From the sequence record PZ809289.1: 64,000 nt of DNA; one strand, given 5' to 3'. Both the position numbers and the translations under genes were made by a program. This document shows, piece by piece, positions 33,800 through 47,361 of this stretch. Below the pieces are notes generated by a model. That model saw only the letters and a program-made list of their open reading frames with translations, had not been told where the DNA came from and did not search any database. Each line of letters begins with the position of its first letter. Within the stretch, counting starts at the first letter, position 1. The DNA comes from a phage.

Positions 33800-33870
33800 G
33801 GCCCTGTAGCTGGACGGTCGAGCGAGCGACTCATAATCGCTGGATGGTGGTTCGATTCCACCCAGGGCCA
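33800..33870 (+). tRNA. tRNA with CAU anticodon (Met/Ile2-type)
   Basis: Hand-folded cloverleaf: acceptor GGCCCTG/CAGGGCC, anticodon stem AGCGA/TCGCT with loop CTCATAA, T-arm GGTGG-TTCGATT-CCACC. Confidence 0.65.
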
Positions 33871-34582: not shown

Positions 34583-34657
34583 GTCCCGCTGGTGTAATGG
34601 ATAGCATACGATCCTTCTAAGTTTGCGGTCCTGGTTCGATCCCAGGGCGGGATACCA
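34583..34657 (+). tRNA. tRNA-Arg (anticodon UCU)
   Basis: Acceptor GTCCCGC/GCGGGAT + A + CCA, T-arm CCTGG-TTCGATC-CCAGG, anticodon loop CTTCTAA. Confidence 0.7.
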
Positions 34658-44233: not shown

Positions 44234-44830
44234 ATGAAAACGTATAAAGAATTTATCGCCGAAGCTTCTGTAGGAAAGGTCCAAGGCATTAATAAAGATG
44301 AGTGGACTTACAAAGGAAACGGCGTTGACAACCCAGGAAACGGTTTTGACGCTAAAACAGCTCCTATTGAACGGTACTTGGCTACAAAAGCTTCCGACTT
44401 TAAAGCTTTCGCCTGGGAAGGACTTCGCTGGCGTAACGACCTAAATATTGAAGCTGATGGACTTAAATTTGCCCATATCCAAGATGTTGTTGCTAGTAAC
44501 TTGGACGCAGCTTTTGTTAAAGCTGACGGTGACCTTCGTCGCTGGAATTTAAAACTGTTCTCTAAACAGAAAGGTCCTGTATTTGTACCTAAAGCAGGTA
44601 AATGGACTATTGATAATAAATTGGCTAAAGCAGTTAACTTCGCTGGTCTTGAATTTGCCAAGCATAAATCCGCATGGAAAGGTCTTGATGCAATGACTTT
44701 CCGTAAAGAATTTGCCGATGTTATGGCTAAAGGCGGCTTTAAGGCAGAAATAGATACCTCTAAAGGTACGTTTAAAGACGCTAATATTCAGTACGCTTAC
44801 GCCGTTGCTAATGCAGCCCGTGGTAATTAA
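44234..44830 (+). CDS. Internal-protein-like, leader MKTYKEFIAE (ipIII-sized)
   Basis: 198 aa, CTS-like N-terminus, basic; late and early promoter motifs upstream. Confidence 0.6.
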   Translation: MKTYKEFIAEASVGKVQGINKDEWTYKGNGVDNPGNGFDAKTAPIERYLATKASDFKAFAWEGLRWRNDLNIEADGLKFAHIQDVVASNLDAAFVKADGDLRRWNLKLFSKQKGPVFVPKAGKWTIDNKLAKAVNFAGLEFAKHKSAWKGLDAMTFRKEFADVMAKGGFKAEIDTSKGTFKDANIQYAYAVANAARGN

Positions 44831-44910: not shown

Positions 44911-45318
44911 ATGACTCGTATCAACCTTACCTTAGTATCTGAATTGGCTGACCAACACTTAATGGCTGAATATCGTGAATTACCACGTGTTTTCGGTGCA
45001 GTTCGTGAACGTATTGCCAAAGGGCAAGGCTTCTCTGATATCCCTAAAGACTTCCGCCTTGGTTCAGGGCACGTCAAGTTCTTTTATGACAAAATTGGTT
45101 TTTTGTTCTTGCGACAAAATGCAATAATTGAGGAACTTCTGAAGCGTGGTTACCAGATTCAAAATACCCATGTAGACGTAGCGGATATTCCATTACGGCT
45201 TATGAACGATTTCACTCCAACCGAAGCTGATATAGCTTTAAGCCAAGCTCGTCTGGATGAAAAAATTGCACAGCGTCCTACCTGGTACAAACATTATGGC
45301 AAGGCTATTTACGCTTAA
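44911..45318 (+). CDS. denV: Endonuclease V (pyrimidine dimer glycosylase) DenV
   Basis: 135 aa; [32 protein letters not shown]...[26 protein letters not shown] near-identical to T4 DenV. Confidence 0.95.
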
Positions 45319-45361
45319 TTAAATCCGTGATAGAATACTTCTATCAACTTAAGGAATAACA

Positions 45362-45661
45362 ATGAAAACTTATCAAGAATTTATCACAGAAGCCAAAGCT
45401 CCTAAAGCATTTCAAATTGGAGTTCAAGGCAATTTAGACCAAGAATATGTTGATGCTATTGTAGCAAGCCTCGGTAAACAGGGCGTACAAGTCGATTTTG
45501 TTGATTTTACCAAAGGTAATACTTTTAATATTGTTACATCTAAAGGTTCTTTAGCTAAAGTTAAAAAGGCCTTTGGCGTAGCACAAGCATATGAAATCGA
45601 CCACTCCGAATTAGAAAATAAAGGTCGCCAGAACACAATTAGAGGTTCTGGTTCTTTCTAA
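45362..45661 (+). CDS. Internal-protein-like, leader MKTYQEFITE
   Basis: CTS-like N-terminus. Confidence 0.55.
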   Translation: MKTYQEFITEAKAPKAFQIGVQGNLDQEYVDAIVASLGKQGVQVDFVDFTKGNTFNIVTSKGSLAKVKKAFGVAQAYEIDHSELENKGRQNTIRGSGSF

Positions 45662-45765
45662 TAAAGGCAAGCCGGCCCTCTCCTCATGAACGTCTAGTCC
45701 TCTGGGTGATGAACCCAAGGATGAATTATGTGCCAAGGATTAGTCCATAACTTAAAGAGTCAAAA

Positions 45766-46125
45766 ATGAAAACATATCAGCAATTTATTACTGAATCTAC
45801 CCAACGTATTAACGAAGCTATGTCGCCTGAACAGTTGGCTAAAGCTAAAGAAGGCCTGAACCCATCTGAAGTTTTTAAAGTTACAGGTAAAGACTTTGCT
45901 TCTATGGCCACTAACCAAAGCCTGGCTAAAGAACTTAAATCTAAATCTAACTTCATTCATGCTACATGGAATGGTGATTCTCTTACTTCAATAAGTGTGT
46001 ACAATAAAAAAGGTCTCCTTAAGAGTTCTTATGGCGCGGATGCCATCCGTGTTTCTAAATCAGATTGGCATAAAAACACTACTAAAGCAGAAAAACCTCA
46101 TAACCCGGCACTAGACCATCTTTAA
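45766..46125 (+). CDS. Internal-protein-like, leader MKTYQQFITE
   Basis: CTS-like N-terminus. Confidence 0.55.
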   Translation: MKTYQQFITESTQRINEAMSPEQLAKAKEGLNPSEVFKVTGKDFASMATNQSLAKELKSKSNFIHATWNGDSLTSISVYNKKGLLKSSYGADAIRVSKSDWHKNTTKAEKPHNPALDHL

Positions 46126-46133
46126 GGCTTAAT

Positions 46134-46391
46134 ATGAAAACTTACCAAGAATTTATTACAGAATCCACTTTAGTTTCTAAACGTTGGAATATGATTGTAA
46201 ACGTTAAACCTTCCGGCACTGAAGTTTCTATGGCCGACCCTAATGATGACGAACTTGAGCACGCTTTTAGCTCTAAAGAAACTGACGAGAAAGTGGTTAA
46301 GCAACTGGTTGCTGATGCAGATCAACTTCGTAAAGTAGCAGATGTTGTTAAGCTGTTTACTAAGAAAGGTTTTAAACACGAAGAACGTTAA
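46134..46391 (+). CDS. Internal-protein-like, leader MKTYQEFITE
   Basis: CTS-like N-terminus. Confidence 0.55.
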   Translation: MKTYQEFITESTLVSKRWNMIVNVKPSGTEVSMADPNDDELEHAFSSKETDEKVVKQLVADADQLRKVADVVKLFTKKGFKHEER

Positions 46392-46507
46392 TTAGCATTT
46401 TAAATGGGAGCAACCTGGACCTCACAATTCTGTGAGGGACTCCCGCCAACCTGTAATAAGGTCGAGCCCAAGTGCGGTAATGGGTAAATGCAGAAAGGGA
46501 CGAATTA

Positions 46508-47068
46508 ATGTGCCAAGGAACGGCCCTCAAAGGAAATACTATGAAATTTTTAACCCCTATTTATCTAACCTTAATGCACGCCTTCGCTGAACGCGCCATT
46601 GAACGTTTAGACTCAGACCAATATACCTGGTATGAACCTACTTCACGAATGCAAGAGTTTGGTACTCTTCGTCTTGATGGCGGTCGACAAACGGGTAAAA
46701 CAAGTGCCATTGCGCAGTTTGCTGCGGATTGGGTTTCCAAAGGTAATGATGTGATTGTTATGTCGAGTTCTTCGCATCGCTCGCGAGAAATTTGTAATAT
46801 AATAAAACAGGTTTCTAAGGCACACCCACATCTCCAAGTCGAAGGTCCCGGTTTTGTTGTCTATGATACCGTGCGCAGTTTCCTTGATGAAGACAATTTC
46901 CATAAGTATCGTGGACTATCTGTTACTCGATTATTGATTATTATCGAAGAGCCAATGCGCCTTCCAACGATGGATAAGTTCTATGAAGCTTACCAGGTAA
47001 TGATTAATAAATTTATGTGCCAAGGCGACAAGCCTTTGCCTCTGTTCTTTGTGATAGGAATGCAATGA
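46508..47068 (+). CDS. Small P-loop NTPase
   Basis: Walker A GGRQTGKTS and Walker B-like LLIIIEEP; alternative start MKFLT at 46541. Confidence 0.55.
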   Translation: MCQGTALKGNTMKFLTPIYLTLMHAFAERAIERLDSDQYTWYEPTSRMQEFGTLRLDGGRQTGKTSAIAQFAADWVSKGNDVIVMSSSSHRSREICNIIKQVSKAHPHLQVEGPGFVVYDTVRSFLDEDNFHKYRGLSVTRLLIIIEEPMRLPTMDKFYEAYQVMINKFMCQGDKPLPLFFVIGMQ

Positions 47069-47361
47069 TGACCGATGAAGAACTTTTTGAGTTCTGTTAT
47101 TTCTCACGTAAGGTCCGAAGAGAGGACCTTACTGCAAATTTCGAATATGCTTATTTCTACCCACTAGAATACGTGTTCATGACAGGGCCCTTTAAGGGCT
47201 CTCGTTTTAGATGTCATGCTCCTAGTATCCGATTAATGAAACAGGTTCCTTACTTCACTCTCGAGTTCATCTCAGGGCCTTGTAAGGGTATTATTACTCG
47301 TAGTCTCTTGACTTATGACCAAGAGATTCATATGATTTCTGACTGGAAAAAATATGTCTAA
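47065..47361 (+). CDS. Hypothetical protein with internal repeat
   Basis: Repeat LEYVFMTGPFKG / LEFISGPCKG; ATG 47065. Confidence 0.45.
   Translation: MMTDEELFEFCYFSRKVRREDLTANFEYAYFYPLEYVFMTGPFKGSRFRCHAPSIRLMKQVPYFTLEFISGPCKGIITRSLLTYDQEIHMISDWKKYV

What the first reader, a model, noticed from the sequence alone, without database searches (positions are those of the whole stretch)
45723..47027. Three copies of TTATGTGCCAAGG delimiting gene modules
The 13-mer TTATGTGCCAAGG (T/A at position 2) occurs at 45726-45738, 46506-46518 and 47014-47026. The first copy starts a 13-codon micro-ORF upstream of an IP-like gene. The second is the start codon region of the P-loop NTPase ORF (MCQG...). The third lies in the last codons of that same ORF (...KFMCQGDKPLPLFFVIGMQ). 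The NTPase coding region is therefore bracketed by direct repeats, and the two IP-like genes are bracketed by copies 1 and 2. The intergenic regions before copies 1 and 2 are relatively GC-rich, lack the usual early-promoter cassette and contain hairpins (for example CCTCACA-ATTC-TGTGAGG at about 46415-46432). This could be a recombination or target site, or a translational operator shared by several genes.
Basis: seen in the sequence. Interest (0 to 1): 0.45.

Follow-up and report, generated by a model that had tools for sequence, protein, structure and literature searches.

The report
Conserved structured RNA upstream of vs.8
Two of the three 13-mers are the tail ends of one intact and one broken copy of a conserved, folded non-coding RNA element that T4-like phages and several other phage families carry (elsewhere usually beside their tRNA genes) and that Rfam does not contain; the third 13-mer is a coincidence inside a protein-coding gene.

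Summary
They are not one system.

- **Copy 3** lies in vs.8 codons F-M-C-Q-G. In relatives it drifts at wobble positions. Isolated 13-mer repeats are expected by chance in 64 kb.
- **Copy 2** is the 3' tail of an intact ~120-nt element (46406-46526) between an internal-protein (IP) gene and vs.8.
- **Copy 1** is the tail of a broken second copy (45663-45765) that has lost a 57-nt core.

The element is conserved in more than 1000 phage records, including T4 (denV–vs.8 spacer). Its 56-nt core also occurs in Vequintavirus, N4-like, Aeromonas and Vibrio phages, and there mostly inside or beside tRNA arrays.

Covariation supports a three-way junction (P3/P2/P2b with a GUAA linker), a 5' hairpin P1, and a pseudoknot from the P1 internal loop. 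There is no Rfam match, no hit in E. coli genomes, and no paper holding the sequence.

The tail box is specific to T4-like phages and always sits 20-35 nt upstream of vs.8. Tail duplicates flank IP genes in several lineages, so the recombination idea is partly right. The breakpoints, however, are not at the 13-mer.

Function is unknown. My best guess is a stable structured small RNA, with the tail acting as a vs.8 leader box.

The parts
46406..46526 (+). Intact RNA element ('type A' 5' domain, as in T4), from the P1 5' strand to the end of the tail-box hairpin
   Evidence: Conserved in 1067 phage records. The core scores 71.7 bits, E about 3e-21, with model R1 and is the only hit in the window. 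Coordinates.
46406..46444 (+). P1 domain: GGGAG (46406-10) pairs with CUCCC (46440-44). It encloses the internal loop CAACCUGGA (46411-19) and the inner hairpin CCUCACA-AUUC-UGUGAGG (46420-37).
   Evidence: RNAalifold on 13 type-A sequences. P1 pair 14/44 is AU:9 GC:4; inner-hairpin pairs are CG:12/UA:1 and UA:8/CG:3/UG:1.
46445..46484 (+). Three-way-junction core: P3 GCCA (46445-48) / UGGG (46481-84); P2 ACCU-GUAAUA-AGGU (46449-62); P2b CGAGC-CCAA-GUGCG (46463-76); linker GUAA (46477-80).
   Evidence: Pair counts on 62 distinct sequences: 89.4% paired, 7 of 12 pairs with compensatory change, 0/500 shuffles reach the covariation score. P3 closing pair is AU33/UA13/CG8/UG5/GC2 with no unpaired cell.
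46485..46501 (+). Segment after P3 (UAAAUGCAGAAAGGGAC). By homology it holds the 3' strand of the pseudoknot with the P1 internal loop (here only CUG/CAG, possibly plus CC/GG).
   Evidence: The pseudoknot is well supported in type B/CC31 relatives. In type A it is inferred by position only, because there is no informative variation.
46498..46526 (+). Tail box GGAC-N-AAUGUGCCAAGGAACGGCCC, containing 13-mer copy 2 (46506-46518) and the hairpin GCC-AAGGAAC-GGC (46512-46524). It ends 15 nt before the vs.8 ATG.
   Evidence: Present upstream of vs.8 in all T4-like loci examined, with two GGA motifs 17-19 nt apart. The GCC/GGC pairs are invariant.
45663..45765 (+). Degenerate second copy ('type B' 5' domain, JS98/JS10-like). 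It has the 5' domain (45663-45715), a 57-nt deletion junction at 45715/45716, tail-box remains (45716-45740, including 13-mer copy 1 at 45726-45738), and a decayed vs.8-type leader now serving IP119.
   Evidence: Alignment with the JS98 element shows the core is deleted, the GGCCCC hairpin arm has mutated to GUCCAU, and homology runs through ATGAAAAC. The core model finds no hit here.
47013..47025 (+). 13-mer copy 3, inside vs.8 codons (K)F-M-C-Q-G. It is not part of the element.
   Evidence: Relatives carry TGC/TGT, CAA/CAG and GGC/GGT at these codons, and T4-type vs.8 has a different C-terminus.
45362..45661 (+). Internal head protein gene (99 aa, phrog_2667) upstream of the degenerate copy
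45766..46391 (+). Two IP-like genes (119 aa at 45766-46125; 85 aa at 46134-46391) with MKTYQ(Q/E)FITES leaders. This is the cassette lying between the two element copies.
46541..47068 (+). vs.8 (175 aa; phrog_1488, unknown function, weak P-loop similarity)
45308..45336 (+). Nearest upstream promoter-like site. IP99, both spacers, the IP cassette and vs.8 would be co-transcribed from it.
   Evidence: consensus match only

Best explanation
**What is shown**
- The window is a Dhakavirus (T4-like) genome.
- Between the IP genes and vs.8 lies one intact copy of a conserved non-coding element, transcribed on the + strand.
- Its RNA folds into a 5' hairpin domain (P1) followed by a compact three-way junction. 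The junction consists of P3, the near-invariant hairpin P2 (ACCU-GUAAYA-AGGU), the irregular hairpin P2b (CGAGC-N4-GYGCG) and a GUAA linker.
- The 8-9-nt internal loop of P1 forms a pseudoknot with the sequence just 3' of P3.
- T4-like phages add a 3' 'tail box' (GGAY-N-AYGYGCCANGGAAYGGCC) that always sits 20-35 nt upstream of the vs.8 start codon.
- Copy 2 is the tail of the intact element.
- Copy 1 is the tail of a second copy of the other 5'-domain type. A recombination event joined an IP99–element–leader unit to the IP119–IP85–element–vs.8 unit at the ATGAAAAC start-codon microhomology. That second copy then lost its 57-nt core and its tail hairpin.
- Copy 3 is a chance identity within vs.8 codons.

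**What is inferred**
- The core is a stable, structured small RNA. It is free-standing in other phages and probably excised from the polycistronic mRNA in T4-likes.
- It acts through its fold, most likely by binding a protein or host factor connected with tRNA biology.
- The tail box acts in cis on vs.8 expression or on processing.
For: **Identity and gene order**
-.

**Homology of the spacers**
- Spacer 2 matches 1067 phage records, including T4, RB69 and Klebsiella/Enterobacter T4-likes. Its core also matches Vequintavirus and a 45-kb phage, always in intergenic DNA.
- Spacer 1 aligns with the JS98-type element except for a 57-nt deletion.
- The core model finds one hit only in the window.

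**Structure**
- Core pairs: 62 distinct sequences, 89.4% paired, 7/12 pairs with compensatory changes, covariation score 0.212 against 0.097 for shuffles (0/500). Slid controls give 0.009-0.093.
- The P3 closing pair shows five pair types and no unpaired cell.
- P1 covaries in both domain types.
- P2b covaries in divergent copies: GUC/GAC and GCC/GGC.
- The pseudoknot takes at least 8 different complementary sequences at the same place: CCG/CGG, CCGA/UCGG, ACACG/UGUGU, CGCCGA/UCGGUG, CGC/GCG, CCUGG/UCAGG, ACCA/UGGU and AAACCG/CGGUUU. Cognate helices average 4.36 bp against 3.48 bp for non-cognate; permutation p<5e-5.
- Many G-U pairs fit only the + strand.

**Not coding**
- Reading frames through the element differ between phages.

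**Stand-alone RNA elsewhere**
- The element lies inside or beside tRNA arrays, on the same strand, in Vequintavirus, Schitoviridae, Aeromonas AhSzw-1 and metagenomic phages.
- It has its own terminator in L268 and L186.
- It is followed by a TTGACA-type promoter in FFH2, Ivi and L031.

**Copy 3**
- Wobble variation in relatives and chance expectation.

**Tail box tied to vs.8**
-.
Against: - There is no expression or probing data, so a stable RNA species is inferred only.
- Single-sequence folding energies are not better than shuffles (z -0.06 to -1.1).
- P2 and part of P2b are nearly invariant in my set, partly because homologues were fished with patterns that fix them. Those helices therefore rest on few compensatory changes.
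- Position 26/37 of P2b is often A-C or U-C, so P2b is not a plain helix.
- The sequences are phylogenetically related, so shuffle-based p-values overstate support.
- In type A (the window's intact copy) the pseudoknot is only 3 bp and is untested by variation.
- In T4-likes the element is 5-12 kb from the tRNA genes, so the tRNA link is indirect there.
- Copies 2 and 3 share 15 of 16 nt, which is somewhat more than a bare 13-mer.
- Function is unknown.
Confidence: 0.75

Rival explanations
1. The 13-mer is a dedicated recombination or target site (att-like, homing-endonuclease or cassette site) that moves gene modules.
For: - Copies 1 and 2 bracket the two IP-like genes.
- Tail-box duplicates flank an IP gene in L014/L020/L145, L022 and L096.
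- The locus is mosaic among relatives, with megablast hits broken into 2-6 pieces.
Against: - In the window the junctions are at ATGAAAAC and at a 57-nt internal deletion, not at the 13-mer.
- The ATG-containing half of the motif varies freely between phages.
- Copy 3 drifts synonymously.
- No recombinase or endonuclease gene is adjacent.
- The conserved sequence extends over about 120 nt, with RNA-type covariation.
- T4 recombination needs only short homology (PMC2839356 discussion), so no special site is required.
Confidence: 0.1
2. The motif is a translational operator shared by several genes and bound by a repressor (T4 RegA-like or host CsrA-like).
For: - The box always lies 20-35 nt upstream of the vs.8 start.
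- It carries two GGA motifs 17-19 nt apart, the second in the loop of a GCC/GGC hairpin.
- From my own knowledge, this resembles CsrA dual sites, and GAAUUAUGU resembles the rIIB RegA operator.
Against: - Only vs.8 consistently has the box.
- Before IP119 the box is decayed, and copy 3 is coding.
- The AUG of the motif is not the start codon and is missing in some phages.
- The AU-rich RegA-like part is the least conserved part.
- No binding data exist.
Confidence: 0.15
3. The core is a cis-acting riboswitch or a self-cleaving ribozyme that processes the transcript.
For: - The architecture is a compact three-way junction plus pseudoknot, with near-invariant junction and loop nucleotides (GUAAYA, CGAGC, GCGGUAA) and variable helices. 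This is typical of aptamers and small ribozymes.
- The position between cistrons, or between tRNAs, would suit a processing element.
Against: - There is no match to any Rfam ribozyme or riboswitch, even at E<=10.
- Downstream genes differ between phage families, and some copies are followed by a promoter or their own terminator. That argues against a riboswitch.
- Cleavage was not tested.
Confidence: 0.15
4. All three copies are chance matches or compositional artefacts.
For: About 63 repeated 13-mer pairs are expected in a simulated window of this composition.
Against: - Copies 1 and 2 sit in segments that each align over tens of nucleotides with the same element in other phages.
- Exactly this pattern occurring three times is far above its own expectation.
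Confidence: 0.02

Closest known systems
PeSL cassettes (promoter-early stem-loops) that mediate modular shuffling in T4-type phages (PMC2839356, PMC4122927)
   Same: - Repeated intergenic sequence in a hyperplastic region.
- Copies flank small variable genes (here IP genes).
- Copies provide homology for insertion and deletion.
   Different: - No sigma-70 promoter and no terminator-like stem-loop in either spacer.
- The element is about 120 nt, GC-richer, with RNA-type covariation and a pseudoknot.
- It is normally single-copy per genome and conserved far beyond T4-likes.
Small stable RNAs and large ornate RNAs encoded beside phage tRNA genes (T4 rnaC/rnaD; ROOL and GOLLD). Recalled from my own knowledge, not tested by sequence except through Rfam.
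   Same: - Non-coding, structured and of unknown function.
- Encoded in or next to phage tRNA arrays, on the same strand.
   Different: - ROOL and GOLLD are over 500 nt and did not match.
- The core model finds nothing near the window's tRNA genes, where rnaC/rnaD-type RNAs would lie.
- In T4-likes this element sits between denV/IP genes and vs.8, not in the tRNA cluster.
Translational operators in T4 leaders (RegA sites, gene 32 pseudoknot) and CsrA dual GGA sites. Recalled from my own knowledge.
   Same: - Conserved leader sequence close to a start codon.
- A GGA motif in a hairpin loop, with a second GGA about 18 nt away.
   Different: - It does not overlap the vs.8 SD or AUG.
- Binding is untested.
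- The core upstream is also found without any tail box or vs.8 in other phage families.
Small three-way-junction RNAs with pseudoknots or loop contacts (hammerhead, twister-sister, purine/TPP aptamers)
   Same: Overall size, a junction with near-invariant nucleotides, and a long-range tertiary pairing.
   Different: - None of their covariance models matches.
- The junction has a single 4-nt linker (GUAA) and two zero-length joints.
- The genomic context is not uniformly a 5' UTR.

Membership tests
PeSL regulatory cassette | Strong sigma-70-like early promoter (-35, -10, AT-rich upstream region) inside the cassette | tested here: not met
   No promoter-like site in 45662-45765 or 46392-46540. 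The nearest are at 45308-45336 and 47308-47336. Definition from PMC2839356.
PeSL regulatory cassette | Stem-loop acting as terminator or attenuator (often GGGG...CCCC) | tested here: not met
   No terminator-like site in either spacer. The hairpins present are parts of a larger covarying fold.
PeSL regulatory cassette | Copies flank variable ORFs and coincide with indel junctions between related phages | tested here: inconclusive
   Tail-box copies flank IP genes in the window and in L014, L022 and L096. However, the window's junctions map to ATGAAAAC and to an internal deletion.
RegA-type translational operator | AU-rich site overlapping the SD or initiation codon of the repressed gene | tested here: not met
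   The motif's AUG is 33 nt upstream of the conserved vs.8 start. It is out of frame or absent in relatives, and the AU-rich part is variable.
RegA-type translational operator | Specific binding by RegA | not testable with these tools
   Needs a gel shift or footprint.
CsrA binding-site pair | Two GGA motifs 10-63 nt apart, at least one in a hairpin loop | tested here: met
   The proximal GGA-to-GGA distance is 17-19 nt in T4-like tails; one variant, L032, has UGA instead of the first GGA. The second GGA lies in the GCC-ANGGAAY-GGC loop. This is a sequence pattern only; the criterion is recalled from memory.
CsrA binding-site pair | One site overlaps the SD of the regulated gene; CsrA binds | not tested
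   The box ends about 15 nt before the vs.8 ATG, and the SD is separate. There is no binding assay.
Any Rfam 15 family (riboswitches, ribozymes, sRNAs, ROOL/GOLLD, Y RNA-like) | Covariance-model match at or near the gathering score | tested here: not met
   No match over the element at the gathering threshold or at E<=10 in the window. None in 21 loci from other lineages.
tRNA / tmRNA | Cloverleaf detectable by ARAGORN or the tRNA covariance model | tested here: not met
   Only flanking genuine tRNAs are called; none overlaps the element.
Riboswitch | Consistent position in the 5' UTR of a functionally coherent gene set | tested here: not met
   Downstream features differ: vs.8, IP genes, tRNAs, promoters, terminators.
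Self-cleaving ribozyme | Site-specific self-scission in vitro | not testable with these tools
   Needs in vitro transcription and cleavage assays.
Evolutionarily conserved structured RNA (generic) | Helices maintained by compensatory changes above controls, on one strand, without a conserved ORF | tested here: met
   structure; no common frame.

The most novel reading that the evidence does not exclude
The core is a previously unnamed class of phage small RNA: a three-way junction plus pseudoknot of about 100 nt. It is native to tRNA arrays of at least five phage lineages (Straboviridae including T4, Vequintavirinae, Schitoviridae, Aeromonas siphoviruses, Vibrio phages).

It may have an active role in tRNA-centred phage-host conflict or tRNA processing. 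Two examples:
- a decoy for anticodon nucleases or tRNA-modifying enzymes. Its invariant P2 loop CUGUAAU resembles the tRNA-Tyr anticodon loop (a resemblance recalled from memory only);
- a new small ribozyme.
Probability: 0.2. Interest if true: 0.85.

Novelty: new variant of a known kind. Interest (0 to 1): 0.55.

Why it matters
T4 is among the best-annotated genomes. Even so, its denV–vs.8 spacer holds a strongly conserved, apparently structured RNA that is unannotated. In some records, including a T4 record, it is partly swallowed by an over-extended vs.8 ORF.

The same core sits in the tRNA arrays of unrelated phage families. That points to a general, portable function, and it gives a concrete and easily deleted target in a genetically tractable phage.

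For annotation, it explains GC-rich 'empty' spacers and corrects the vs.8 start. For genome evolution, it shows that a conserved RNA leader, like PeSLs, can serve as a homology patch for shuffling internal-protein genes.

Tried and rejected
- **Rfam.** Gathering and E<=10 searches of the window and of 21 related loci found nothing over the element.
- **tRNA/tmRNA detection.** Negative.
- **Protein-coding reading.** This covers the micro-ORF, the MCQG... extension of vs.8 and the 27-52-aa ORFs in spacer 2. Frames and stops are not conserved between phages.
- **Helix UACAU/AUGUG.** It would pair the 13-mer's 5' half with the segment after P3. JS10 and L012 seemed to covary, but L017, L194b, L089 and L035 break it without compensation. 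Not supported.
- **Outer stem GUG...CAC around the tail hairpin.** GUG-to-GCG variants are not compensated. Not supported.
- **Pseudoknot between the type-A loop CCUGG and the tail CCANGG.** No covariation; in type B the loop varies while the tail does not. Rejected.
- **Co-variation of GYGC in P2b with AUGYGCC in the tail.** T4 suggested it; L010 and L013 contradict it.
- **Generic duplex searches with wide windows.** Noisy: perm p 0.003 and 0.037. I rely instead on the loop-defined test.
- **Genome-contig scan.** All 42 hits lack the GYGCGGTAA continuation, and their number is within what chance would give for a pattern of this length (my estimate).
- **E. coli genomes.** No match.
- **Literature.** No paper holds the sequence. 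T4 searches found nothing on this spacer. The 2023 catalogue of 8,495 unnamed viral csRNAs (PMC10690425) could not be checked because its supplements are not held. It may list this motif.
- **Pfam for neighbouring proteins.** No family found.
Full report
**1. Observation**

The pattern TWATGTGCCAAGG has exactly three perfect matches in the window, all on the + strand: 45726-45738, 46506-46518 and 47013-47025.

The repeat finder extends the family to 16 nt: GAATTATGTGCCAAGG, AATTAATGTGCCAAGG and AATTTATGTGCCAAGG.

Several other parts of the observation also hold:
- The 13-codon micro-ORF at copy 1 is real.
- Both spacers are richer in G+C than their surroundings (0.45 and 0.48 against 0.395).
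- Neither spacer has a promoter-like or terminator-like site.

Two points need correction:
- The 'NTPase' ORF is vs.8. Its conserved start is ATG 46541 (MKFLTPIYL...), as annotated in all close relatives.
- The upstream ATG inside the 13-mer is out of frame in JS10 and absent in other T4-likes.

**2. Setting**

The window is a Dhakavirus (JS10/WG01/ABTNLS3 relatives).

| Feature | Coordinates (+ strand) |
|---|---|
| IP gene | 44234-44830 |
| denV | 44911-45318 |
| IP99 | 45362-45661 |
| spacer 1 | 45662-45765 |
| IP119 | 45766-46125 |
| IP85 | 46134-46391 |
| spacer 2 | 46392-46540 |
| vs.8 | 46541-47068 |
| vs.7 | 47065-47361 |

Sources. The nearest upstream promoter-like site is at 45308-45336, so both spacers lie inside one transcription unit.

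**3. Copy 3 is a coincidence in codons**

Copy 3 encodes F-M-C-Q-G near the vs.8 C-terminus. In relatives the same codons read TGC or TGT, CAA or CAG, and GGC or GGT. Some have CLCQG or YMCQL, and T4/RB69-type vs.8 has an unrelated C-terminus. This is variation of the kind expected for codons, not for a nucleotide motif.

Simulated sequences with the window's dinucleotide statistics contain about 63 repeated 13-mer pairs. An isolated extra copy is therefore unremarkable.

**4. Copies 1 and 2 are tails of a conserved element**

Spacer 2 finds 1067 phage records, including:
- T4, where it fills the denV–vs.8 gap;
- RB69;
- Klebsiella, Enterobacter, Cronobacter, Edwardsiella and Salmonella T4-likes.

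A 40-50-nt core also matches Vequintavirus and a 45-kb coliphage, always in DNA without a credible gene. Pattern scans of viral and metagenomic contigs added many more copies.

By contrast, all 42 hits in bacterial and archaeal genomes lack the rest of the motif, and their number is within what chance would give for a pattern of this length (my estimate). Complete E. coli genomes have no match.

A covariance model of the core (R1) finds exactly one copy in the window, at 46439-46494 (71.7 bits). Spacer 1 has none.

**5. Structure**

Two 5'-domain types exist in T4-likes.
- *Type A* (T4 and the window's spacer 2): GGGAR / YUCCC closing an internal loop CAACCUGGA and an inner hairpin. Compensatory changes occur in both helices.
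- *Type B* (JS10, JS98, RB69 and the window's spacer 1): a long irregular hairpin closed by AAAGG / CCUUU. Covarying pairs are GC/CG/AU at alignment columns 10/57 and CG/AU at 19/55.

After P1 comes a three-way junction.
- *P3* is 3-5 bp. Examples are CCCU/AGGG, CCA/UGG, CCCC/GGGG, CUGGU/GCCAG, CGCG/CGCG and ACAC/GUGU.
- *P2* is ACCU-GUAAYA-AGGU. It is nearly invariant, with GCCU/AGGC and GCCA/UGGU in rare variants.
- *P2b* is CGAGC-N4-GYGCG and contains a purine-purine mismatch. Divergent copies have GUC/GAC, GCC/GGC or GG/UC instead.
- A *GUAA linker* joins P2b back to P3.

On 62 distinct sequences:
- 89.4% of cells are paired.
- 7 of 12 pairs show compensatory change.
- No shuffle out of 500 reaches the covariation score (0.212 against 0.097).
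- Slid controls give 0.009-0.093.
- The P3 closing pair is AU33/UA13/CG8/UG5/GC2, with no unpaired case.

The 8-nt P1 internal loop pairs with a segment 8-14 nt after P3. Across type B/CC31 phages this pseudoknot is spelled CCG/CGG, CCGA/UCGG, ACACG/UGUGU, CGCCGA/UCGGUG, CGC/GCG, CCUGG/UCAGG, ACCA/UGGU and AAACCG/CGGUUU. Cognate helices average 4.36 bp against 3.48 bp for non-cognate pairs (permutation p<5e-5).

By inspection, the same kind of pairing recurs in other lineages (sequences):
- CUCCGG/CCGGAG in Ivi;
- GUGAGG/CCUUAC and UGAGG/CCUCA in two Vequintavirus types;
- CGGAA/UUCCG in N4-likes;
- GGGU/ACCC in a marine group;
- ACCAA/UUGGU in L253;
- GCCUA/UAGGU in L241.

Numerous G-U pairs fit only the + strand. 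Reading frames across the element differ between phages, so it is not coding.

Caveats:
- Single-sequence folding energies are unremarkable.
- P2 is invariant partly by ascertainment.
- The related sequences inflate the shuffle statistics.

**6. Context outside T4-likes**

In every non-Straboviridae lineage with enough flanking sequence, the core lies on the same strand as tRNA genes, within or beside them. Examples:
- Vequintavirus;
- Schitoviridae, Pylasvirus KpCHEMY26;
- Aeromonas phage AhSzw-1, where it sits between tRNA-Glu and tRNA-Ile in a 32-tRNA array;
- several metagenomic phages.

Further features point to a free-standing RNA:
- L268 runs tRNA-Ser, then the element, then an intrinsic terminator. 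L186 also ends in a terminator.
- In FFH2, Ivi and L031 the element is followed directly by a TTGACA-type promoter.
- N4-like copies are closed by an extra helix, GUUGUGAC/GUCACAAC. It covaries in L125 as GUUGUGAA/UUCACAAC.

These features describe a free-standing small RNA gene, not a leader of a particular protein gene.

No Rfam 15 family matches any version, and no paper in the library holds the sequence. A 2023 catalogue of thousands of unnamed viral structured-RNA candidates could not be checked.

**7. The tail box and the 13-mer**

T4-likes add GGAY-N(5-8)-AYGYGCCANGGAAYGGCC after the pseudoknot strand.
- Invariant parts: GCCA-N-GGAA-Y-GGCC (a 3-bp hairpin with GGA in its loop) and an upstream GGA 17-19 nt away.
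It reads CAUGCG in T4, ACGUG in L017 and UUGAG in CC31.

The box always lies 20-35 nt before the vs.8 start. This holds even where an IP gene separates it from the core (L014/L020/L145, L022, L096). In those phages a second box remains attached to the core.

PEi20-like phages carry two tandem elements. Only the vs.8-proximal one has the box.

The box therefore belongs functionally to the vs.8 leader.

**8. History of spacer 1**

Spacer 1 aligns base for base with the JS98-type element and vs.8 leader, with three differences:
- A 57-nt deletion removes the P1 3' strand, P3, P2, P2b and the pseudoknot strand. The junction is at 45715/45716.
- The tail hairpin arm has decayed: AAUGGCCCC has become UUAGUCCAU.
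- Homology ends at ATGAAAAC. That sequence is shared by JS98-type vs.8 (MKTF...) and by IP genes (MKTY...).

Relatives show the component arrangements separately: denV–IP119–IP85–elementA–vs.8 in ABTNLS3 and E33, and IP99–elementB–vs.8 in JS10.

The window is thus a recombinant carrying both, with the redundant upstream copy degenerating.

This matches the logic of PeSL-mediated shuffling, in which repeated intergenic homology flanks variable genes (PMC2839356). But the element lacks the defining promoter and terminator, and the junctions are not at the 13-mer.

**9. Mechanism**

Shown:
- a conserved fold;
- one intact and one broken copy;
- the coding coincidence at copy 3;
- the association with tRNA arrays elsewhere;
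- the link between the tail box and vs.8.

Inferred (about 0.35 confidence for each clause):
- The core is a stable structured RNA that works through its three-way junction and pseudoknot by binding a protein or host factor related to tRNA metabolism or tRNA-targeted defence.
- In T4-likes it is transcribed within the denV/IP–vs.8 mRNA and is either excised or acts as a folded 5' domain.
- The tail box modulates vs.8 translation or marks a processing site.

Rival readings are weighed in the fields above: a dedicated recombination site, a shared translational operator, a riboswitch or ribozyme, and pure chance.

**10. Verdict**

The finding as written is only partly right and, taken alone, of modest interest. 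What lies beneath it is more interesting: an unannotated, widely conserved structured RNA present even in T4. It is directly testable by deletion and RNA mapping.

Noticed in passing
L005 1227-1877 (T4 MT984581, vs.8 CDS): The T4 record starts vs.8 at an ATG inside the inner hairpin of the RNA element, giving a 216-aa product. The start conserved across phages is MRTFLTG, about 40 codons downstream. The extension is in frame in T4 but out of frame in the window. Several other records place 'hypothetical protein' CDSs over the element.
   Followed up: partly
L189 5087-5253 (minus strand); L194 9018-9185: PEi20-like phages carry two tandem copies of the element. The second has covarying P2 (GCCU/AGGC) and P2b (CAGUC/GACGG, CAGCC/GGCGG), and it alone carries the tail box before vs.8.
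   Followed up: partly
window 31853, 32420, 35737, 41014, 44875, 47872, 52516, 56994 (+ strand): The 19-mer TGATACTATAGACCTATCA occurs 8 times (7 exact) against 0 expected.
   Followed up: partly
window 45763-45800 and 46131-46168: A 38-nt direct repeat (82% identity) covers the start codons and the MKTYQ(Q/E)FITES leader codons of the two IP-like genes. This is another homology patch in the locus. ATGAAAAC is also shared with JS98-type vs.8.
   Followed up: partly
L031 about 55-90 and 185-215; L007 about 1135-1170: Vequintavirus copies are flanked by a second repeated motif, CCCYUAGAGGGCUUGAWAGUGC (a small hairpin CCCU-UAG-AGGG). It lies upstream, and in one subtype downstream as well. It may be a processing signal or another RNA.
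   Followed up: no
L175 5230-5470 (minus), L177, L193, L204, L125, L217 1480-1660: N4-like (Schitoviridae) copies have an additional terminal helix GUUGUGAC/GUCACAAC enclosing the whole RNA. It covaries in L125 (GUUGUGAA/UUCACAAC).
   Followed up: partly
window 46498-46520 and 45719-45739; T4-like loci generally: There are two GGA motifs 17-19 nt apart in the tail (AUGGAY ... CCANGGAA), the second in a hairpin loop. In JS10-type tails AUACAUGGAUGA resembles the CsrA SELEX consensus. This resemblance is recalled from memory and was not tested.
   Followed up: partly
window 46451-46458 (P2 loop) and homologues: The near-invariant CCUGUAAU/CCUGUAAC of P2 resembles the tRNA-Tyr anticodon loop (CUGUAAA, from memory). 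Variants have GUG (as in the His anticodon) or AUA. Given the tRNA-array context this may be meaningful or may be coincidence.
   Followed up: no
window 46395-46400 and 46486-46491: GCAUUU upstream of P1 is perfectly complementary to AAAUGC just after P3. T4 and L010 have AUUUA/UAAAU-type complements, but L013 does not. The sequences are AU-rich, so this may be chance.
   Followed up: partly
L031 3115-3418; L186 12784-13079: Group I introns (Rfam RF00028; 81 and 54 bits) lie in two of the phage contigs that carry the element.
   Followed up: no
window 33800-33870 and 34583-34657: tRNA-Met(CAT) and tRNA-Arg(TCT) genes lie about 12 kb upstream of the element. The core model finds nothing near them.
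   Followed up: yes
window 47306-47334: A weak Mu-gpT-DE-like match (18.8 bits, E 0.35, far below the gathering score of 49) lies just before the next small ORF. It is probably chance.
   Followed up: no
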